Shown here: positions 3 through 9,700 of the stretch, piece after piece | Layout: each line of letters begins with the position of its first letter | Numbering within the stretch: the stretch's first letter is position 1 | Source of the DNA: Candidatus Hodarchaeota archaeon | Lineage (GTDB): Archaea > Asgardarchaeota > Heimdallarchaeia > Hodarchaeales > Hodarchaeaceae | DNA length: 27,419 bases | Assembly: GCA_016840035.1 (NCBI GenBank) | Contig: JAEOTC010000073.1 | Span: forward strand, 1-27,419 | Direction: 5' to 3' | Notes under the pieces: generated by a model | What the model saw: only the letters and a program-made list of their open reading frames with translations | Told to the model about the DNA's origin: nothing | Database searches by the model: none | Program-made: the position numbers and the translations under genes

Positions 3-308
3 GCTATTGAAGCGAAAAATCAGATCTCTATACTGAAATTACTTGATCAGAATAGAATTTTGCTTGAAGAATTAAGTTTTGCCTGCACGTGTCACCTAGA
101 AATAGAAGCGCATCAAGTCATGAGTCACACGGCCTCAAAATACGGTGCTGTAGCAAAGTTCTCAGGTGCAGGAGGGGGAGATTGTAGTGTGGGTGTGTGT
201 TTCAATGAATCAGATGCAGCCCTCATTGTTAATGAATGGGTAGAAAATGGTATCATGCCTATTGATATCGAATTTTCTCAAGAGGGAATCCGAATAGAAA
301 AAGATTAG
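3..308 (+). CDS. GHMP kinase C-terminus, probable phosphomevalonate kinase (ERG8/MvaK2-like), 5' partial
   Basis: The frame is open from the window edge (AIEAKNQISILKLLDQNRILLEEL...). It contains AKFSGAGGGDC, the GHMP motif III variant typical of phosphomevalonate kinases, plus NRxLLxxL. It lies in a mevalonate gene neighbourhood. Confidence 0.75.
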   Translation, partial: AIEAKNQISILKLLDQNRILLEELSFACTCHLEIEAHQVMSHTASKYGAVAKFSGAGGGDCSVGVCFNESDAALIVNEWVENGIMPIDIEFSQEGIRIEKD

Positions 309-333: not shown

Positions 334-429
334 TTATACTATTTCTACTGTTTCGTTATCTCCATCGACTTTTATTTGCATCCCTGTTTCAATTTTACTG
401 ACATCTATTTGATCTACACACGGTAATTC
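334..429 (-). pseudogene. 3' remnant of a second phosphomevalonate dehydratase small-subunit gene
   Basis: The minus strand reads ELPCVDQIDVSKIETGMQIKVDGDNETVEIV*, versus EIPCVDQIDVSKIETGMQLTVDGDNATVELE* at 2208-2303. Hand count: 25/31 aa and 77/96 nt identical. No start codon or 5' portion is present. Confidence 0.9.
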
Positions 430-696
430 GTAAAAATTATCAGATTTTCCAATGATAGTAAGGCTTAGAACAACGATAACCTTATTCAATCCTGTTAATT
501 AATTTTTCTGCAAGATTCAGACATGGATTTCAAATTCTGTCAATAAAGAAGACTATATTCAACAGGATTGCTATATAAACATCTTGTAGTATCAATTCGA
601 TCTGAGTTCCCACATATTACAACCTTTAGATAGATAAATTAACAATCTATTGACGAATTCCTTTAAATGAAATTCAACTATATATGGTGAGAATTT

Positions 697-1914
697 ATGG
701 AATTAACACCCGAAGAACAAGATATGGCGGCAGGGAAGTATGGTAAAGCCACACAAACAGCCATGGAAATTTTAGTAACACTTGGCGAAATATATGGTGC
801 AAAAAGACTGATTGACATAAGTTCCGTTCAAATAGCAGGTGTAAGCTATGCAAATTTGAACGAACCAGGTCTTTCGTGGCTAGAAGAAATGGCAAAAGAT
901 GGAAAGGTGCGAACTTTCACCACCCTCAATCCTGCTGGAAAATCTTTTAGTTAGTTAAATACTAAGAGGTCCAGAATGGATCTAGAGGAATGGAAAAAGT
1001 TAGCCATCAGTGAAGAGTTTGCTGAGAATCAACAAAGAGTTGTCAAGGCTTTCGGCAAACTTGGTGTTATCACTACGTGCTCCTGCACGCCCTATTTGTA
1101 CGGTAACCTTCCTGCATATGGTCAACATATTTCTTGGAGTGAGAGCTCTGCTGTTTGTTATGCTAACTCCGTTTTAGGAGCTAAAACAAACCGTGAAGGT
1201 GGGCCAAGTGCTTTAAGTGCTGCTCTTGTAGGAAGAACTCCTGAATATGGTTTCCACCTTGAAGAAAACAGACAACCAGAAATCACAGTTAATATTACTT
1301 GCGAGGTGAAAGGTACATTTCGATTTGGGGCACTAGGAAAGGTGCTTGGAGATCGTTTTGGGAAGAAAATCACTTATATTACTGGTATCCACAAAGCCTC
1401 TGTTGAAGAGTTGAAATCCTTTTGTGCATCATATGCAACTTACGGTGGAGTAGCTCTCTTTCATATGGAGGATATCACACCTAACAGAGTGAACAAAATT
1501 CCCGATACAGTAGAAACCGTTACCGAAGACGATATGAAGAAAGCGCTTGGAGATCTAGATGATGAAACTGAAATAGATTTCATTAGTTTAGGTTGTCCTC
1601 ACGCTTCATTAGCAGAATTGGAATATATCGCCAAAAAATTAGATGGTAAGACGATTAATCCTAAAAAAGAAGTGTGGATCACAACTGCAAGACCTACAAA
1701 ACAGATTGCCGATAGAATGGGTTTCACAAAACTAATTGAAGACTCTGGAGCAAAAATTGCCGCTGATACTTGTTGTGTTGTTGCTCCTATCAAAGGTCGT
1801 TTCCATGGATTAGCCTCAGATTCTGCCAAGATGTGTTACTATGGATCAGGGCGTAACAAATTTGCTGTGAAATTAATGTCAATGGATGAATGTCTTGAGG
1901 AGGCGTTGTCATAA
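697..1914 (+). CDS. Phosphomevalonate dehydratase large subunit (aconitase X, DUF521); join(697..940,977..1914), 393 aa after removal of the putative intron
   Basis: ORFs 697-954 and 976-1914 are in the same frame and join to give TTLNPAG-MD. AcnX motifs CTPY, WSESSA, NSVLGAKTNREGGPSAL, GCPH and DTCxVV (Fe-S Cys ligands) are present. GGTGA SD at 686-690. TAATG coupling to the small subunit. Confidence 0.9.
941..976 (+). other. Putative 36-nt archaeal bulge-helix-bulge/loop (BHB/BHL) intron in mRNA
   Basis: 4-bp central helix CTGG(935-938)/CCAG(971-974), 3-nt bulges AAA(939-941) and AAT(975-977), 10-bp inner stem 942-951/961-970 with two G-U pairs, outer helix ATCC(929-932)/GGAT(978-981). Cutting after the 2nd nt of each bulge gives GGA A|TG GAT = G-M-D in frame and removes the TAG at 952-954. 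Confidence 0.8.
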
Positions 1915-2303
1915 TGAAACTGATAGGTAGAAAAATCTATAAAGGGAAAGTTACAGGTGAAGCATTAGTTACTAACGATAGCATCTCCTTTTATGGTGGT
2001 GTTGATCCTGAAAATGGCGTAGTTGTTGAAAAAGGTCATGAACTGGAAGGTACCAGTATCAATGATAAGATATTAGTTTTTCCTTCTGGTAAAGGGTCTA
2101 CAGTTGGATCTTATGTTATCTATCAGATGAAAAAAACAGGGAAAGGTCCAAAAGCATTGGTTTTGAATGATTGTGAAGCAATTGTAGCTGTCGGAGTAAT
2201 TATTTCCGAGATTCCTTGTGTCGATCAGATAGATGTCAGTAAAATTGAGACTGGTATGCAATTAACAGTTGACGGTGATAACGCAACAGTAGAGTTGGAA
2301 TAA
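1914..2303 (+). CDS. Phosphomevalonate dehydratase small subunit (aconitase X swivel domain, DUF126)
   Basis: Motifs ISFYGGVDP, GKGSTVGSY (catalytic Ser region) and IPCVD. Overlaps the large-subunit stop (TAATG), with a GAGGAGG SD upstream. Confidence 0.93.
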   Translation: MKLIGRKIYKGKVTGEALVTNDSISFYGGVDPENGVVVEKGHELEGTSINDKILVFPSGKGSTVGSYVIYQMKKTGKGPKALVLNDCEAIVAVGVIISEIPCVDQIDVSKIETGMQLTVDGDNATVELE

Positions 2304-2307
2304 TACT

Positions 2308-5300
2308 CTACTCCACTAATTTTCCTTTTTGAAAATATGTATTTCTTCTCTTGTACTTTGTTTCTATAGGATTTCCCATCCATAGGATATCTAGTACACG
2401 ACATATATCTAATAGTCTCCAATTTTCATAAGAAAGGTTTTTTCCATTCATAAGACCAAGAGCGCTTCTATTTGTGGACGGAAAAACATCTCTCAACATA
2501 TTTTTAAAATCATCTGAATCAGCGAATTCCTTCATTAATCTAATAACTTTTATGGATTTTGCTCCAGGAGAAAAATGTTCCTTCTCGATTTCATCAATTT
2601 TTGTTTCCCAAAATGTTAATCTTCCTTCATGATTGAGCATTTTAGGTATTGAATTTGGAAATATTGAGCGTTTCAGGATCTCTTTACTCCATTCGCCTCT
2701 TGTTTGTCCCCCGATCAGTAGATCCCTCAATCCCTTTGTTGTAAAGATTTCTGTAAGTCTTTTATGATCTTTAACCTGTAAATCAAATTCCATATTATTT
2801 CTCTTTTCAGGATGGGTTTTTTGTAGGCCTATTAAGTTTAATTCCTTTACATTTATAGATCCTTTGACGGTGACATTTCTAAATTCTTGCAATTCTCTCA
2901 TTCGGAATAGGAAAATATTCGTTTCTTTGGGTGGAATATTGTAATAAATGCTTCCTGCTTGTCTCGTTCCCTTTACTGGAATAAATTCAGCTGGATTATC
3001 TGGGGTAAATTTGACACTGTTACCTTTGATATTTGGATCGAAATAATGAAATAAAAACATACCAAAATATGACTGTCCATGGTTCATAGGAAACTTGTCT
3101 TTTGAGAGAGCGTTTGATATTAATAACTTGGATGAGGGAGAAAACGATCCATGAATTCTTTGATTTATTTTTTGTCTCTCAATTCTTACAGATTTTCTTT
3201 TCATCTCCCATAAACTAGCATCAAATTCATAAGTCGTTTTCTTATCCATTATTGGGGATAGTACAATCCCATCAGCACCTTGTCCGTGTTCTCCTCCAAG
3301 GTAAAGTCCATATACATTAGTTAAAAGAGAAATCGAATTTGGAGTTCGAGAATGAAAAGCATAGTGTTTCCTCCTGAAATTTTGGTGTCTCCTTGCTTTT
3401 CCAGTAATTCTTTGTATCAGGGCAGTATCTCCCCAATTTGTATTTGAACCTTCAAAAATCCAGTTCTTCGTCATCTGTACTGATTTTTCTTCAGTGTGGC
3501 CCAATATTTTGTACAATGAGTATAGAGTAGACGCATAAGCACATCGCAAACGAAGATCTCTTGTCATCTTATGAGAATCCCACTTAGAGAGTAATCTTTC
3601 ACCAGAAAGGACACTTTCAGGCGCGGCACAATACTCAAAAGCGTTAATCTTAAGTTCCCTGATGTTTTGCCAAGCTCCCTTCGGATTTTTGTAAAAACTT
3701 GCACTCTCAGGAAAAACATCTCTTGTGAATCTTGACACTGCACTTAATTCTCTTGGTTTCCATCTTTCATCTATACTAATTCGAGTATTTAGTCTATTGA
3801 AAGAAGAAAAGAACATAGATGTTAAAGTAACCGCTTTCATCATAATATCTGTATGAGCAGCCTCTGGACGACGGTTCAGAGGGGATCTTGAACCAAACCA
3901 TAAGTTTCTACCGGTATTATACATTTCTTGGGCTATTGTGAGGAATCTAGGGTCTTTTGCATCCAGTAAAAAATCGACTGATAAAGAAGCAATTCGAGAA
4001 ACAAGATGTTTGGATAAAATTAAATCTGCTTTTGATAGATCATTTTTTATTACTTTTCCGAACTGTAAGGCCCCTCTATCATGTTTACATTCAATATGGT
4101 TAAATAAAATGTTGAAATTATTCCTGATTCTCTCTCTTATTTCCCTCCTAGCGATTACACCATTAACAACTACCTCACTCGGGTCAATTTTCATGATATT
4201 TAAAAATCTAAGAAAATGGGAACTCTTTTCTATCTTCCCTTTTTCAGATTGGTTTATTAGTTCAATTAGTCTCAAGAGTCTCTCGGTAGACCGGATTTCA
4301 AATAAAGAATTTGATACTTCAGCAAAACTCTTCCTAGTTCTGGTTTCAAAAACAGTTGTTAGCTGATGTTCTTTCAGGAAATTTCTCATTGACAGATTTG
4401 GAGATATAGGTTTTAAATTTCTAAACTCATCATGATAAGCACTAAATTCCAAGGACATAGCAAATTTATACAGATTGGGTAGTTCAGGTTTAGAATGGTA
4501 TAGAATTTTCGTAAATTCGTGTTCAGTTGTCCCAATCAACAACCTCATCTTTATGAAAGGATCTTTCAATAGGGCCTTAAATTCCTCTTCGTTCCTATAA
4601 ATTTCTTTAATCCCTGGATCATGACATAGGAAAGATCTAAATAAATCAGAACGAGTGTCTTGATGAATTGGTGAAATTATTCCTCCAATCCCTAAATCTT
4701 CTAAACTAGATGTAACATCACATACTTTATCATTATCTATTGCTAACAACATCCGAACAATATTATATTCCCTCTTCATCATAATATTTGAATTTTTAGG
4801 GATGTACAAGTGAACATTGTCTGTATGTTTCTCGTTTCTCAATGAAATCAACTTTATTTCCTCATTAAACAAGGTTAAAGCCGACTTTATTGAATCAATG
4901 TCCAATTTCTCATTAGAATTTTCACTAAAGGCCTTTATGAAATTTTCTTCACGAAATACTATTTCTATTCCCATTCTTCTAAACTTATCATGATCTGAAT
5001 TCCTAAAAAGCATTGTTTTTTGAAACAACTTCCCTTCAGAATATTCCATATCATTAAAATTGAAAAAATCTGATTTTAGTTGGATTTCTTCTTCCAGAAA
5101 GTTGTGGACTTTCTCCTGCCCTATTAGGGATAAATTCAAATCCTGATGTATTAAATCTACTTTTTCTCTTACTTCTCCCTCGACTTCCTGTAAGATTTCC
5201 AGATGATTTGTGGATTGAATAATTGTTTCAGTTTCCTGCTTTATATCTACTAATGGCTTTTCTTCTAATTGAAGTGTGTTCTCAATGTCCTGCTCTGTTT

Positions 5301-5517
5301 GTTTCTCTCCCACTTCCTCCTCCCTTTTCTCTTGAAAATCTACTTGAAATTGCTCTGATTCTTCTTCTCTGATCACGATTTGGTCTTCATAGGGCCCTTC
5401 TGCCAGCAGTTCTTTTTCGAGCTGCTCGATTTCATGCACCCAATCCCTTTTTTCTTTTTCTTCTTGTCTTTCCTGCTCTTCCTCCTGTTTCCACTTAAAC
5501 CTCTCTTCTGATGACAT
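2308..5517 (-). CDS. Large hypothetical protein (1069 aa) with a Glu/Gln-rich N-terminus and a possible PD-(D/E)xK nuclease-like motif
   Basis: Long uninterrupted ORF with an acidic, low-complexity first ~140 aa. GADGIVL...ASLWEMK (3199-3279) resembles a D...ExK motif. Confidence 0.8.
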   Translation of the reverse strand: MSSEERFKWKQEEEQERQEEKEKRDWVHEIEQLEKELLAEGPYEDQIVIREEESEQFQVDFQEKREEEVGEKQTEQDIENTLQLEEKPLVDIKQETETIIQSTNHLEILQEVEGEVREKVDLIHQDLNLSLIGQEKVHNFLEEEIQLKSDFFNFNDMEYSEGKLFQKTMLFRNSDHDKFRRMGIEIVFREENFIKAFSENSNEKLDIDSIKSALTLFNEEIKLISLRNEKHTDNVHLYIPKNSNIMMKREYNIVRMLLAIDNDKVCDVTSSLEDLGIGGIISPIHQDTRSDLFRSFLCHDPGIKEIYRNEEEFKALLKDPFIKMRLLIGTTEHEFTKILYHSKPELPNLYKFAMSLEFSAYHDEFRNLKPISPNLSMRNFLKEHQLTTVFETRTRKSFAEVSNSLFEIRSTERLLRLIELINQSEKGKIEKSSHFLRFLNIMKIDPSEVVVNGVIARREIRERIRNNFNILFNHIECKHDRGALQFGKVIKNDLSKADLILSKHLVSRIASLSVDFLLDAKDPRFLTIAQEMYNTGRNLWFGSRSPLNRRPEAAHTDIMMKAVTLTSMFFSSFNRLNTRISIDERWKPRELSAVSRFTRDVFPESASFYKNPKGAWQNIRELKINAFEYCAAPESVLSGERLLSKWDSHKMTRDLRLRCAYASTLYSLYKILGHTEEKSVQMTKNWIFEGSNTNWGDTALIQRITGKARRHQNFRRKHYAFHSRTPNSISLLTNVYGLYLGGEHGQGADGIVLSPIMDKKTTYEFDASLWEMKRKSVRIERQKINQRIHGSFSPSSKLLISNALSKDKFPMNHGQSYFGMFLFHYFDPNIKGNSVKFTPDNPAEFIPVKGTRQAGSIYYNIPPKETNIFLFRMRELQEFRNVTVKGSINVKELNLIGLQKTHPEKRNNMEFDLQVKDHKRLTEIFTTKGLRDLLIGGQTRGEWSKEILKRSIFPNSIPKMLNHEGRLTFWETKIDEIEKEHFSPGAKSIKVIRLMKEFADSDDFKNMLRDVFPSTNRSALGLMNGKNLSYENWRLLDICRVLDILWMGNPIETKYKRRNTYFQKGKLVE

Positions 5518-6735: not shown

Positions 6736-9700
6736 TTATGGCCCATCATCATATTCATCAATCCAATTCGCTACTCGTTCATCTGTATCAGGATGAATGT
6801 GCCAACTTGCAGGAAGACCCATAATAAAACCACAAATCCCACTAATATTGTAAGAGGTATTTTCTTTCCAATACCAATAGTATTCTTGAGAGGTTTCATT
6901 GAAATCGGTATAATTAAAGTACATAGGGGTGTATTCCAAGTGTTCTATACATCCATGAGGAGCCTCCATATCCTCATTATGCATATATGTATGTAATACT
7001 TCATGGAGAATTGCACGACTATCCGCGTTAAAAAGATACCCTTCAGATGTGTTATAATTTGTTATGAAAATGCAATTTTCGGCTGCAGATACGGTGGTCG
7101 CAGATATATTTGGTTCAACAAAGGTAATAAGCAGATCAAAGCCATGATTCCCGGGTTGGGTACCAATCCCATTACTCCAAGAGTTTGATAACCCTAAAAG
7201 ATTATTTGCTTGAGTCCGGGCCCATGAATGCTCTCCTCCTTCTCCTATAGCAGAGGTGTTCGCATCAGAGTTGAATACTGTAACGAGAAAATCCGTTGAA
7301 AAATGTTCTTGAAAAGAGGTATTTGCCCAAGTAGAGGCATTTTCACCATAAATACGAAAATTGGAATTGGTTTCGATATCATCAAATATAGTAGTCGGAT
7401 GGGAGGTACTGATATCATCACAGACAATGGCGGTGACAAAGACTTTATGAGTGGCTCCACTAGTTATTGAGAATATTGCATTACTCAAAGTATTATTTTT
7501 ACTACCCCAGGAGGTATGATTGGCGAAAATGTGCGTAATTTCATATTCTCCACTATTTAATGCATACCAACCTATTCCTGTTGAACCTTCAGCGTTACTA
7601 GCACCTTCAAACACACGGGAAATGGTTGCATACACCCAAGAGGTACCTCCAACAGCAATCGTGGATCCAGAAAATGAGACATCAACCCACGGTTCATAAT
7701 AAATATCTCCAGTATGATCAAGTTGTATCTTAAAATTGAAATCGGAAACTACTACTGTCCCAGAGTTTTTAAACTTGACCTGCAGTGAATGATTGATATC
7801 ACCTTTGGTACCATTAGAAAACGACCAATCATCTACTTCAACCTTACCATACTCGATGAATGTCCCCACCCAATCTACATAGATATAATTTGAGGTAGAA
7901 GGGGCAACTTTTTGGATTTCTACTTTGAAAAAGGCATCATCATTGATTTTCGAGGGAGTCCATGTCGTGGCATTAGAAAAATCTAGAGTATCTAGAGCCC
8001 ATAAGGAGTGACTAGTTAACTCTGTCCAGTTTGACGGGCCGCCCAGATAATGCACTCGAACCTTTAAGTAATCCGAAGTCCCATTTTCGGCTCTCCAATT
8101 AACGAGAACTTTAACTTTTTGTATTATAATCGCTTTTGGAGTTATACTCCAATCATAATCTGTAAAATATAGACTTGAGGTATTACTAGTTCCTAAGGCA
8201 TAAGTATTATTCAAAGTGTAGGCATTGGTTACATTGGTCCAACCACTACCTCCTGAATACCCTGTAGGATCATGACAGCCTGTCGGAGGGGGATTGGTAA
8301 CATTATATGTAAAGGTCAGCTTGGGGTCATAACTGGATGTGTTTTCCCCGATTCGTGCATAATCGGCTTGCCGATAATCACAATTATATTTCTCCAACCG
8401 CCACGAAATATAATTTTCCTCAGATTCCCGATATTGGGCCCAATAGTTAAGGGCGTTCTGTATCTTTGTACTACTAGCTGTCTTCCAACCCGTGCCTGAA
8501 CCTGTAATAATTCCTGTTTGAGTGACTTGGGTTCCCATAGCTACCCCAGAAGTGTCATTTTCTTTGGCGGAGAAGGTATTGAAATTCCCCCCGATATTAT
8601 AAATTCGACAGGAGATTCCATCTCCACTTTCAAAATAATTGGTGGTAAAATATAATTCCAATGAAGCGTTTGTGATTGTTTCAATGTGGGCAGTAATCCC
8701 AGTATCAATCGCAAAATACCCATCCATGTCCACATAATCCCAGACAGGATAATCATACACCCATTCACGGCCTACTTCCATATAGGAATTTCCTGTTTTC
8801 CATGAGCTTGTTCCAGAATATTCTCTCCATAGATCATTATTGTCATCATCCACATACCAGGTTGTTGTGGGATCAATTTCGATTGTGGATCCTGCTAAGA
8901 AAGACCCGTATCCGTACATTCCGAATCGCAGTGTCTTTCGCGAAATTCCATTCGGCAAGAGCTGATTATGTAGGTTTAAGTACTTCTGTGTGAATCCAGC
9001 TTCTTCCATATCATTGAAATTAGTTCCTATATGGGCCTTATTATTTTGTGAAAAAATCTCTACCTGACTGATGTGATTGTTCAAGATTGCACCTGCATTC
9101 CAGACCTCATCAATTGTCTTTTCAATTTGATGCGAGATATTAGAAAAGAGAAATCGTGCGGGTTTAAACCCAGTTCCATCCGTTTGTGGGGCACTCATTA
9201 ATTCATAGGCAAAGCCTACATCAGAAAAGCTATGGGTAAGACATGTGATCTGATTAATCATATGGAACAGACCATCTGTTTTATTGTACTTGAATCCATG
9301 CCGAAAATTCCAGGTACTGCTTAGAATACTGACATTTGGGGTATCAAAATATAGCCCCCAGGTATCTACATCTTGATAAAAATGTAGTGTGTTACGGGGA
9401 TTTTGAAACGGTTCGGAATAAAGTGTCCGATCATTGAGAATTTTGTCATAAATATTGCCTTCATCTTGAACATACAAATGAGGAAATAAGGCGTACAAGG
9501 GGGAATCATATGAGGGAAGTGATGTATTGGTGAGACGTGGATAATACAAATATTGGGCATGACCCCATTCTGTATCTTGAAAGTTGAGATAAAAAGCCAT
9601 CACACCATTAAACGATTCGTAACCAACACCCCAGAGGGTAGAATTCTCGATTTGTGAGAGAAAAACCGGAATAGAATCGGGTGATTCAAAGAAGTAAATT

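What the first reader, a model, noticed from the sequence alone, without database searches (positions are those of the whole stretch)
929..981. Candidate BHB-type intron in the mRNA of a lipid-biosynthesis gene (PMDh large subunit)
Seen: a 36-nt insert with an in-frame TAG interrupts NPAG|MD. It forms a 10-bp inner stem, a 4-bp central helix CTGG/CCAG flanked by 3-nt bulges AAA (939-941) and AAT (975-977), and a relaxed outer helix ATCC/GGAT (BHL-like). Established: the archaeal splicing endonuclease EndA cuts after the second nucleotide of each bulge, and RtcB ligates the exons. Applying that rule (940|941 and 976|977) yields exactly GGA-ATG-GAT and a 393-aa protein. Such introns are mostly known from tRNA and rRNA, with crenarchaeal cbf5 the well-known mRNA case. 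Inference: this is endonuclease-dependent mRNA splicing of a metabolic gene in a probable Asgard-like archaeon, which automated annotation would call a split gene or pseudogene.
Basis: partly seen in the sequence, partly recalled or inferred. Interest (0 to 1): 0.93.

Follow-up and report, generated by a model that had tools for sequence, protein, structure and literature searches.

The report
tRNA-type intron splits Asgard acnX gene
A 36-base hairpin shaped like an archaeal tRNA intron interrupts a lipid-precursor enzyme gene of an Asgard (Hodarchaeales) archaeon, so its mRNA very probably has to be cut and rejoined by the tRNA-splicing enzymes, which papers report for only one other archaeal coding sequence.

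Summary
The AcnX/phosphomevalonate dehydratase large-subunit gene is cut at NPAG|MD by a 36-nt insert (941-976) that carries an in-frame TAG. The two pieces match Pfam AcnX positions 1-82 and 83-400.

- Seven copies with DNA in hand carry an insert at this site, of 29, 34, 36 or 37 nt, mostly not multiples of three.
- 6 of 10 inner-stem pairs show compensatory changes.
- The cut rule restores GGA-ATG-GA in all seven copies.
- Both exons are under strong purifying selection (dN/dS 0.04-0.08).
- 14 same-genus orthologues lack the insert exactly.
- The genome encodes two EndA paralogues and RtcB.

There is no RNA evidence. The main rival is translation as two polypeptides, because exon 2 starts with ATG. 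My motif scan found no other coding-sequence intron in this genome.

The papers I searched report coding-sequence BHB introns only for crenarchaeal cbf5. This scan had already noted the same acnX intron on another Hodarchaeales genome (e1-5444811). I class it as a new member of a known kind.

The parts
697..940 (+). Exon 1 of the AcnX (phosphomevalonate dehydratase) large-subunit gene. It encodes residues 1-81 plus the first base of codon 82.
   Evidence: Pfam PF04412 profile positions 1-82. It aligns to 7cnr_A residues 1-82 and includes the substrate-contact positions G48, V49, S50, N53 and N78 (=Asn79 of TkAcnX) (PMC8184944 passages).
941..976 (+). The predicted 36-nt BHB-type intron, bounded by cuts after the 2nd nucleotide of each bulge. 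Homology alone places the 36-nt insert anywhere from 938-973 to 941-976.
929..932 (+). 5' strand of the relaxed outer helix (ATCC). It pairs with 978-981 (GGAT). TG 933-934 is unpaired.
   Evidence: fold; helix 1 is 92.9% paired across 7 sequences, and none of its pairs shows a compensatory change (3 of 4 never vary).
935..938 (+). 5' strand of the 4-bp central helix (CTGG, in exon 1). It pairs with CCAG 971-974 at the intron's 3' end.
   Evidence: The pairing is CCAG in the 4 copies of the 36/37-nt class and ACAG (G.A at the inner end) in the 3 copies of the 34/29-nt class.
939..941 (+). 5' bulge AAA, with the predicted cut at 940|941.
   Evidence: Cut rule from PMC2738675 (passages).
942..970 (+). 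Inner hairpin: stem 942-951/961-970, loop 952-960, in-frame TAG 952-954.
   Evidence: 6 of 10 pairs change on both sides.
975..977 (+). 3' bulge AAT, with the predicted cut at 976|977.
   Evidence: invariant in 7 of 7.
977..1914 (+). Exon 2 (residues 82-393, stop at 1912-1914).
   Evidence: Pfam profile positions 83-400. Best solved relative is 7cnr_A, E 1.2e-74.
1914..2303 (+). AcnX small subunit (swivel domain), whose start overlaps the stop of exon 2.
   Evidence: PF01989. NF003046 at 181 bits, above its cut-off.
3..308 (+). C-terminal part of a phosphomevalonate-kinase-like GHMP kinase, cut by the contig start.
   Evidence: TIGR01220 profile positions 264-357, 63.8 bits, below the full-length cut-off because the protein is partial. 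PF08544.

Best explanation
The 36 nt at 941-976 are an archaeal bulge-helix-bulge (relaxed, HBh'-type) intron inside the coding sequence of the AcnX/phosphomevalonate dehydratase large subunit of a Hodarchaeales (Asgard) archaeon. In the pre-mRNA, exon-1 codons GCT-GGA pair with the intron's 3' end (CTGG/CCAG). This helix is flanked by two 3-nt bulges, a 10-bp intron hairpin and a loose exon-exon helix. The two-paralogue splicing endonuclease (EndA alpha/beta-like) is inferred to cut between the 2nd and 3rd nucleotide of each bulge. RtcB is inferred to join the exons to give ...NPAG-MD... and a 393-aa enzyme, and to release a 36-nt intron that is probably circular. Shown here: the structure, its conservation and covariation, frame restoration, selection on the exons, and the presence of the enzymes. 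Inferred: the cleavage and ligation themselves.
For: The Pfam match is exactly co-linear across the break. The fold has z -3.69. Same-site inserts occur in 7 copies with DNA: window 36 nt, G002 36, G014 36, a JGI metagenome contig 37, G000:C158 34, G015 34, and a G008 remnant 29. In the 7-sequence alignment, 89.8% of cells pair and 6 of 10 inner-stem pairs change on both sides. 0 of 500 shuffles reach the covariation score, and sliding the partners drops pairing to 19-41%. Columns 15-20 and 58-64, which hold the cut sites, are invariant, so the rule gives GGA-ATG-GA in 7 of 7. The NPAG codons read AATCCTGCTGGA in 7 of 7 insert copies against 1 of 14 insert-free genus copies, and that one is the sister of an insert-bearing copy. 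dN/dS among insert-bearing copies is 0.036-0.076 where dS is not saturated, for both exons. G002 (93% complete) and G014 (91% complete) have this as their only AcnX-L match. In the protein database, 29 of 30 N-terminal fragment clusters at >=78% identity end NPAG plus an unrelated tail starting with K or I. 20 of the 60 best C-terminal hits start at the junction codon: 18 of 312-313 aa begin MD, one of 293 aa begins MD, and one of 312 aa begins VD. The genome encodes EndA paralogues of 182 and 210 aa, each with N- and C-terminal endonuclease domains, and RtcB. The same genome has a tRNA-Ser T-loop intron with bulges AG|T and AA|T and a central helix of 3 pairs plus A.G. It must be processed with 4-bp spacing to give a 7-nt T-loop, which parallels the 34-nt class.
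Against: There is no RNA or protein evidence. Exon 2 begins with ATG, and in the window copy a GAGGT lies 5 nt upstream of it, so separate translation is possible; that motif is absent from the other 6 copies. The outer helix is displaced by two unpaired bases. In the 34/29-nt class the central helix has a G.A mismatch. The thermodynamically preferred register (a 3-bp helix with bulge GAA) would give a frameshift if cut by the rule, and for G015 the minimum-free-energy fold is not BHB-like at all. Only 7 related sequences underlie the covariation, so the shuffle control overstates significance. The G008 copy is a truncated pseudogene. My genome scan found no excess of other coding-sequence introns, so this would be a lone mRNA substrate in this genome.
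Confidence: 0.8

Rival explanations
1. Split gene. The insert is a short spacer that stops translation of an 81-aa N-terminal fragment. The conserved Met codon then restarts translation of a 312-aa fragment, and the two chains assemble into an active large subunit without any RNA splicing.
For: Exon 2 starts with ATG in all 7 DNA copies. 18 of the 19 C-terminal pieces of 312-313 aa start MD, and one starts with a GTG-type V. GAGGT lies 5 nt upstream of the ATG in the window. Variable, frame-breaking insert lengths fit two separate ORFs as well as they fit an intron. AcnX type II is already a two-chain enzyme (PMC8184944 passages).
Against: A spacer has no need for a 4-bp helix with exon-1 codons, two 3-nt bulges at the exact frame-restoring positions, or a covarying hairpin. 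It also gives no reason to freeze synonymous sites of the NPAG codons only in insert-bearing alleles. The SD-like motif is not conserved in 6 of 7 copies, and the ATG lies in or next to paired RNA. Six N-fragment clusters lack a stop in the insert and run 12-31 residues out of frame into exon 2. The break is 3 residues after the substrate-binding Asn (N78 = Asn79 of TkAcnX), inside the TTLNPAG motif that the window protein shares with TkAcnX.
Confidence: 0.13
2. Decaying pseudogene. The insert inactivated the gene, which is dispensable, for example if a classical phosphomevalonate kinase route exists.
For: A phosphomevalonate-kinase-like gene lies directly upstream. The G008 insert-bearing copy is truncated and frameshifted, and sits beside an intact insert-free copy.
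Against: dN/dS is 0.04-0.08 on both exons between insert-bearing copies whose synonymous sites are near saturation. Both ORFs are intact in 5 of 6 full or partial non-remnant copies that have both exons. It is the sole AcnX-L match in G002 and G014. No diphosphomevalonate decarboxylase scored above cut-off in this 87%-complete genome.
Confidence: 0.03
3. Translated insertion. UAG is read through, for example by the amber-anticodon tRNA of this genome, or the ribosome bypasses the hairpin, giving a 12-residue insertion.
Against: G014's insert carries TAA instead of TAG, and the 29-, 34- and 37-nt inserts break the frame. The only nearby landing GGA (978-980) would be out of frame. Twelve extra residues would sit 3 residues from a substrate ligand.
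Confidence: 0.01

Closest known systems
BHB-like intron in the cbf5 (pseudouridine synthase) pre-mRNA of Desulfurococcales and Sulfolobales (Watanabe 2002; Yoshinari 2006; Yokobori 2009, PMC2738675: abstract and passages read)
   Same: A short intron inside a coding sequence. It has a relaxed BHB motif with predicted cuts between the 2nd and 3rd bulge residues. The host has a hetero-oligomeric EndA. The intron is present or absent among close relatives, implying gain and loss.
   Different: The gene is a metabolic enzyme rather than an RNA-modification enzyme, and the phylum is Asgard/Hodarchaeales rather than Crenarchaeota. Splicing of cbf5 was confirmed by cDNA and in vitro cleavage; here nothing has been tested at RNA level.
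BHB intron in the 5' UTR of Haloferax volcanii HVO_1309 mRNA (Schwarz et al. 2020, PMC7714728: passages read)
   Same: An mRNA substrate of the archaeal splicing endonuclease.
   Different: That intron lies in the untranslated leader and does not interrupt a reading frame.
Non-canonical and multiple BHB introns of Asgard tRNA genes (bioRxiv 10.64898/2026.10.13.758758: passages read; Kaneta 2018, PMC5829648: abstract from the search listing)
   Same: Same size range (about 20-37 nt), A-rich 3-nt bulges, relaxed motifs and the same two-paralogue EndA. A tRNA-Ser intron in this genome shares the grammar, including a purine-purine mismatch in the central helix.
   Different: The host RNA is a tRNA. 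There the exon side of the motif is tRNA structure; here it is made of codons.
HAC1/XBP1 unconventional mRNA splicing by IRE1 plus RtcB in eukaryotes (recalled; the PMC8718801 abstract in the search listing mentions RtcB in XBP-1 splicing)
   Same: Spliceosome-independent removal of a short mRNA segment by a protein endonuclease acting at RNA structure, followed by RtcB-type ligation that changes the reading frame.
   Different: The endonuclease is IRE1 rather than EndA/TSEN, the sites are stem-loops rather than a BHB motif, and the process is regulated by stress. No regulation is shown here.

Membership tests
Archaeal BHB intron (EndA/RtcB-spliced) | [quoted passage not shown] | tested here: met
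   Window: CTGG/CCAG with bulges AAA and AAT. 4 of 7 copies have 4 Watson-Crick pairs. 3 of 7 (the 34/29-nt class) have 3 pairs plus G.A.
Archaeal BHB intron (EndA/RtcB-spliced) | Helices flanking both bulges (strict hBHBh') | tested here: not met
   The inner helix is present (10 bp, covarying). The outer helix ATCC/GGAT is displaced by the unpaired TG 933-934, so the 3' site lies in a 2x3 internal loop. The motif is therefore relaxed (HBh'/BHL-like), not strict.
Archaeal BHB intron (EndA/RtcB-spliced) | Cutting between the 2nd and 3rd bulge nucleotide yields the functional mature sequence | tested here: met
   It gives GGA-ATG-GA(T/C), that is NPAG-MD, in 7 of 7 copies despite insert lengths of 29-37 nt. 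This matches the insert-free orthologues. Rule from PMC2738675.
Archaeal BHB intron (EndA/RtcB-spliced) | Pairing maintained by compensatory change among homologous introns | tested here: met
   6 of 10 inner-stem pairs change on both sides, and 0 of 500 shuffles reach the score. Only 7 related sequences were available.
Archaeal BHB intron (EndA/RtcB-spliced) | Host encodes a splicing endonuclease able to cut relaxed motifs, and an RtcB ligase | tested here: met
   There are two PF01974/PF02778 proteins (182 and 210 aa) on C112, consistent with an alpha/beta heterotetramer, and RtcB on C173 at E 3.4e-166. The oligomeric state is inferred.
Archaeal BHB intron (EndA/RtcB-spliced) | Excision observed in RNA (spliced junction, free or circular intron) | not testable with these tools
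   No transcript data were available. The database search found no full-length protein identical to the joined pieces.
AcnX type II large subunit (phosphomevalonate dehydratase, PF04412) | Full-length match to the family, with the swivel-domain small subunit encoded next to it | tested here: met
   The two pieces cover profile positions 1-400. PF01989/NF003046 small subunit at 1914-2303. Best solved relative is TkAcnX-L, 7cnr_A.
AcnX type II large subunit (phosphomevalonate dehydratase, PF04412) | Substrate-contact residues of TkAcnX-L (Gly48, Val49, Ser50, Asn53, Asn79) | tested here: met
   The alignment to 7cnr_A places G48, V49, S50, N53 and N78 at these positions. Residue roles are from PMC8184944 passages. 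The Fe-S cysteine ligands were not checked.
AcnX type II large subunit (phosphomevalonate dehydratase, PF04412) | Mevalonate 5-phosphate dehydratase activity | not testable with these tools
   Function is inferred from homology and gene neighbourhood only.

The most novel reading that the evidence does not exclude
The acnX intron is not just tolerated. It is a control point and an evolving genetic element. Splicing by EndA/RtcB would gate production of the archaeal-type mevalonate enzyme, which is encoded beside a classical-route kinase. That would be a prokaryotic counterpart of HAC1/XBP1-type regulated mRNA splicing in the closest relatives of eukaryotes. The patchy distribution of the intron among sister alleles would reflect repeated precise loss through spliced-RNA copies, or spread by recombination.
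Probability: 0.1. Interest if true: 0.85.

Novelty: new member of a known kind. Interest (0 to 1): 0.62.

Why it matters
In the papers I could search (passages), an endonuclease-spliced intron inside an archaeal coding sequence is reported only for cbf5 of Crenarchaeota. One further mRNA case lies in a 5' UTR. A second, well-supported coding-sequence case in a metabolic gene of Hodarchaeales, the Asgard group placed closest to eukaryotes, would show that the tRNA-splicing machinery of this lineage also serves mRNAs.

The case has practical value too. It explains why annotation pipelines report this mevalonate-pathway gene as two fragments, and so may score the pathway as incomplete. It also offers natural alleles with and without the intron in one genus, which makes splicing, intron loss and any regulatory role directly testable.

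Tried and rejected
Covariation therefore rests on 7 sequences.
- Intron lengths: for six alleles, lengths of 29 (four clusters), 34 and 35 nt are only inferred from protein tails.
- Spliced products: I looked for full-length database proteins identical to the fragment pairs, which could be spliced transcripts or polymorphic alleles. The best identities were 0.877-0.988 for N-terminal parts and 0.869-0.984 for C-terminal pieces, so there is no evidence either way.
- Genome-wide scan of G000 for other coding-sequence BHB introns: a 4-bp central helix plus at least 4 bp of inner helix gave 379,146 raw hits. After open-frame and codon-usage filters, 996 passed under the true cut rule against 976-1006 under four shifted-cut decoys. 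Stricter structure filters also gave no excess. Among the 52 listed candidates, only the acnX site combined a short intron with a 10-bp stem and a 4-bp outer helix. The scan misses motifs with a mismatch in the central helix, such as the C158 copy, and exons shorter than 60 codons.
- Mobile repeat: blastn-short of both inserts against the genome found only chance matches of 13-18 nt.
- Rfam: no family reached its gathering score in the window.
- tRNA introns: aragorn's intron mode gave 30 tRNAs, 19 of them with 'introns', several implausible (up to 1415 nt). I use it only as a rough sign of intron richness. My cross-check of scanner hits inside those genes was mostly noise, apart from two clean examples.
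- Structure prediction: the single-sequence AlphaFold2 model of the insert-free orthologue P0066 was useless (mean pLDDT 38.4), so I make no structural statement from it.
- Classical mevalonate route: the search for diphosphomevalonate decarboxylase found only a weak GHMP-kinase hit. The window starts at a contig end, so whether the classical route is complete cannot be told.
- Rejected readings: read-through, ribosomal bypass, assembly artefact and intrinsic terminator (no T-run follows the hairpin).
- Supplementary files of papers were not consulted.

Full report
**What is there.** The window is contig C7 of a 4.3-Mb, 87%-complete genome bin. Record titles of its nearest relatives name them Hodarchaeota, Hodarchaeales or Heimdallarchaeota, which are Asgard archaea. 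Between 697 and 1914 lie two ORFs in the same frame, of 85 aa and 312 aa. Pfam AcnX (PF04412) matches the first over profile positions 1-82 and the second over 83-400. They are therefore one gene interrupted at ...TTLNPAG|MD... by 36 nt that contain an in-frame TAG. The AcnX small subunit follows at 1914-2303, and a partial phosphomevalonate-kinase-like gene precedes the pair. The best solved relative is the Thermococcus kodakarensis AcnX type II large subunit, 7cnr_A. In that alignment the window's N78 falls on Asn79(L), which PMC8184944 (passages) describes as contacting the 5-phosphate of mevalonate 5-phosphate and Glu129. The break is thus three residues after a substrate ligand.

**The structure.** The minimum-free-energy fold of 921-990 has this architecture at -23.0 kcal/mol, against -12.95 +/- 2.72 for 200 shuffles. 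One detail differs: ViennaRNA slides one A-U pair, A939-U970 instead of A942-U970, which makes a 5-bp helix. The canonical register uses the same bases and is available in all copies. The outer helix is offset by two unpaired bases, so this is a relaxed HBh'/BHL-like motif, not a strict hBHBh' motif.

**Comparative evidence.**
- Distribution in the genus: a protein search of 41 related genomes and tblastn of both pieces showed the two halves directly adjacent in 14 same-genus loci. They are separated at exactly this point in G002 (36 nt), G014 (36 nt), G015 (34 nt) and a second copy in the window's own bin, C158 (34 nt).
- Wider distribution: the named records searched gave no new insert-bearing record. 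Three with an insert are the same records as G002, G014 and G015. 37 others, including Thorarchaeota and bacterial homologues, have no gap.
- Two more copies: a class-wide search of 83 genomes added a truncated, frameshifted remnant copy in G008 with a 29-nt insert. One pattern scan of JGI metagenomes added a 37-nt copy.
- Lengths: 29, 34, 36 and 37 nt rule out a translated insertion.
- Pairing: in the 7-sequence alignment the proposed pairs hold in 89.8% of cells. 6 of 10 inner-stem pairs show changes on both sides, no shuffle of 500 reaches the covariation score, and sliding the partners gives 19-41% pairing.
- Cut sites: the columns that carry them are invariant. The rule 'cut between the 2nd and 3rd bulge residue' (PMC2738675) therefore restores GGA-ATG-GA in every copy.
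- Exon codons: the codons that build the central and outer helices read AATCCTGCTGGA in all 7 insert-bearing copies, but in only 1 of 14 insert-free ones. That one (L003) is the well-supported sister of an insert-bearing copy, as expected after a recent precise loss.
- These sequences are related, so the counts are descriptive and not independent tests.

**The gene is alive.** Between insert-bearing copies, dN/dS is 0.036-0.076 for both exons wherever dS can be estimated, and synonymous sites are otherwise saturated. G002 and G014 have no other AcnX-L match.

In the protein database, 29 of the 30 N-terminal fragment clusters at >=78% identity, the window's own included, end in NPAG. An unrelated tail follows, starting with K in 19 clusters and I in 10. 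Six of these run on out of frame into exon 2.

20 of the 60 best C-terminal hits start at the junction codon. 18 of 312-313 aa begin MD, one of 293 aa begins MD, and one of 312 aa begins VD. The other 40 are full-length. The intron is therefore common in this genus-level group, and pipelines annotate it as two genes.

**History.** On a tree of exon 2 from 19 genus sequences, insert-bearing copies are scattered: G014 next to insert-free G004, G015 next to G010, and C158 next to G013. The outgroup pair and all other families lack the insert. Two readings remain possible. Either the intron was gained once and then lost precisely many times, or it spread among alleles by recombination.

The window's bin holds two acnX operons, on C7 and C158, that fall in different subclades and have different neighbours. 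I cannot tell paralogues from a mixed bin (contamination 4%).

**Machinery and local grammar.** The genome encodes two EndA homologues with both endonuclease domains (182 and 210 aa) and one RtcB. The Asgard tRNA preprint reports two paralogues in 44 of 60 genomes and reads them as an (alpha-beta)2 enzyme. PMC2738675 links hetero-oligomeric EndA to relaxed motifs and to cbf5 pre-mRNA splicing.

The genome has bona fide tRNA introns of similar size and bulge sequence. One is a tRNA-Ser T-loop intron on C14 whose central helix is 3 pairs plus A.G, and which must be removed as if the helix had 4 pairs to leave a 7-nt T-loop. This matters for the 34/29-nt acnX class. There the central helix is CTGG/ACAG, and the thermodynamically preferred register would give a frameshift.

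**Rivals.** The serious rival is a split gene translated as two chains, because exon 2 starts with the conserved Met codon. The BHB geometry, the covariation, the frozen exon codons and the non-conserved SD-like motif argue against it, but only RNA or protein data can exclude it. I rate pseudogene, read-through and bypass as very unlikely, for the reasons given under each.

**Scope in this genome.** A motif-plus-open-frame scan with shifted-cut decoys found no excess of other coding-sequence introns (996 against 976-1006). The acnX site was the only clear hit. The insert is not a repeat, and Rfam finds nothing in the window.

**Comparison and novelty.** This works like the cbf5 intron and meets the sequence-level criteria of a relaxed BHB intron. 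RNA-level membership is untested. My four literature searches found no report of a BHB intron in an Asgard protein-coding gene. PMC7714728 (2020) states that cbf5 was the only mRNA BHB intron reported before its own 5'-UTR case. Subscription journals outside the library could hold more.

Earlier unpublished notes of this scan already describe the same acnX intron in another Hodarchaeales genome (e1-5444811), and BHB-type introns in other Asgard and DPANN protein genes. Within this project the finding is therefore a confirmation on new DNA, with added alleles, a tree and a genome-wide control.

**Verdict.** It is a new member of a known kind. Confidence is 0.8 and interest 0.62.

Noticed in passing
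window 334-489 (-): A 51-aa ORF whose last 30 residues are 83% identical to the C-terminus of the AcnX small subunit encoded at 1914-2303. It looks like an inverted remnant of a duplicated small-subunit gene just upstream of the operon.
   Followed up: partly
L107 2739-3025 (-) = G008:C46 about 55739-56024: A decayed second acnX-L copy: intact exon 1, a well-formed 29-nt intron hairpin, then a 1-nt insertion in an A-run and truncation after about 31 exon-2 residues. It lies beside the homologue of the window's 1069-aa ORF. An intact insert-free copy lies about 4 kb away on the same contig.
   Followed up: partly
G000:C158 5809-7021 (L108 2310-3522): A second acnX-L/acnX-S operon in the same bin, followed by a UbiX-like gene. 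It carries the 34-nt frame-breaking intron class and groups with G013 rather than with the C7 copy. It could be a paralogue or a contig from a co-binned relative.
   Followed up: partly
G000:C14 about 7535-7675 (+): A tRNA-Ser(CGA) gene with two introns. The T-loop intron (31 nt) has a central helix TTCA/GGAA with an A.G mismatch, bulges AG|T and AA|T, and a GNRA-capped 8-bp hairpin.
   Followed up: partly
window 3-308 (+): The C-terminal part of a phosphomevalonate kinase (classical mevalonate route) lies directly upstream of the archaeal-route dehydratase. The contig starts here, so the rest of any classical-route cluster is not visible.
   Followed up: partly
protein P0077 (JGI, 312 aa): One insert-bearing allele has a C-terminal piece that starts VDLEEW, so the DNA codon at the junction is probably GTG. 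Under the BHB cut rule the A of the Met codon comes from exon 1, so ATG would still be restored by splicing. I could not fetch the DNA.
   Followed up: no
window 2308-5517 (-): A 1069-aa ORF with a Glu-rich N-terminus. It has a homologue in the same position next to the acnX remnant in G008 (L107 3-2483). Function unknown.
   Followed up: no
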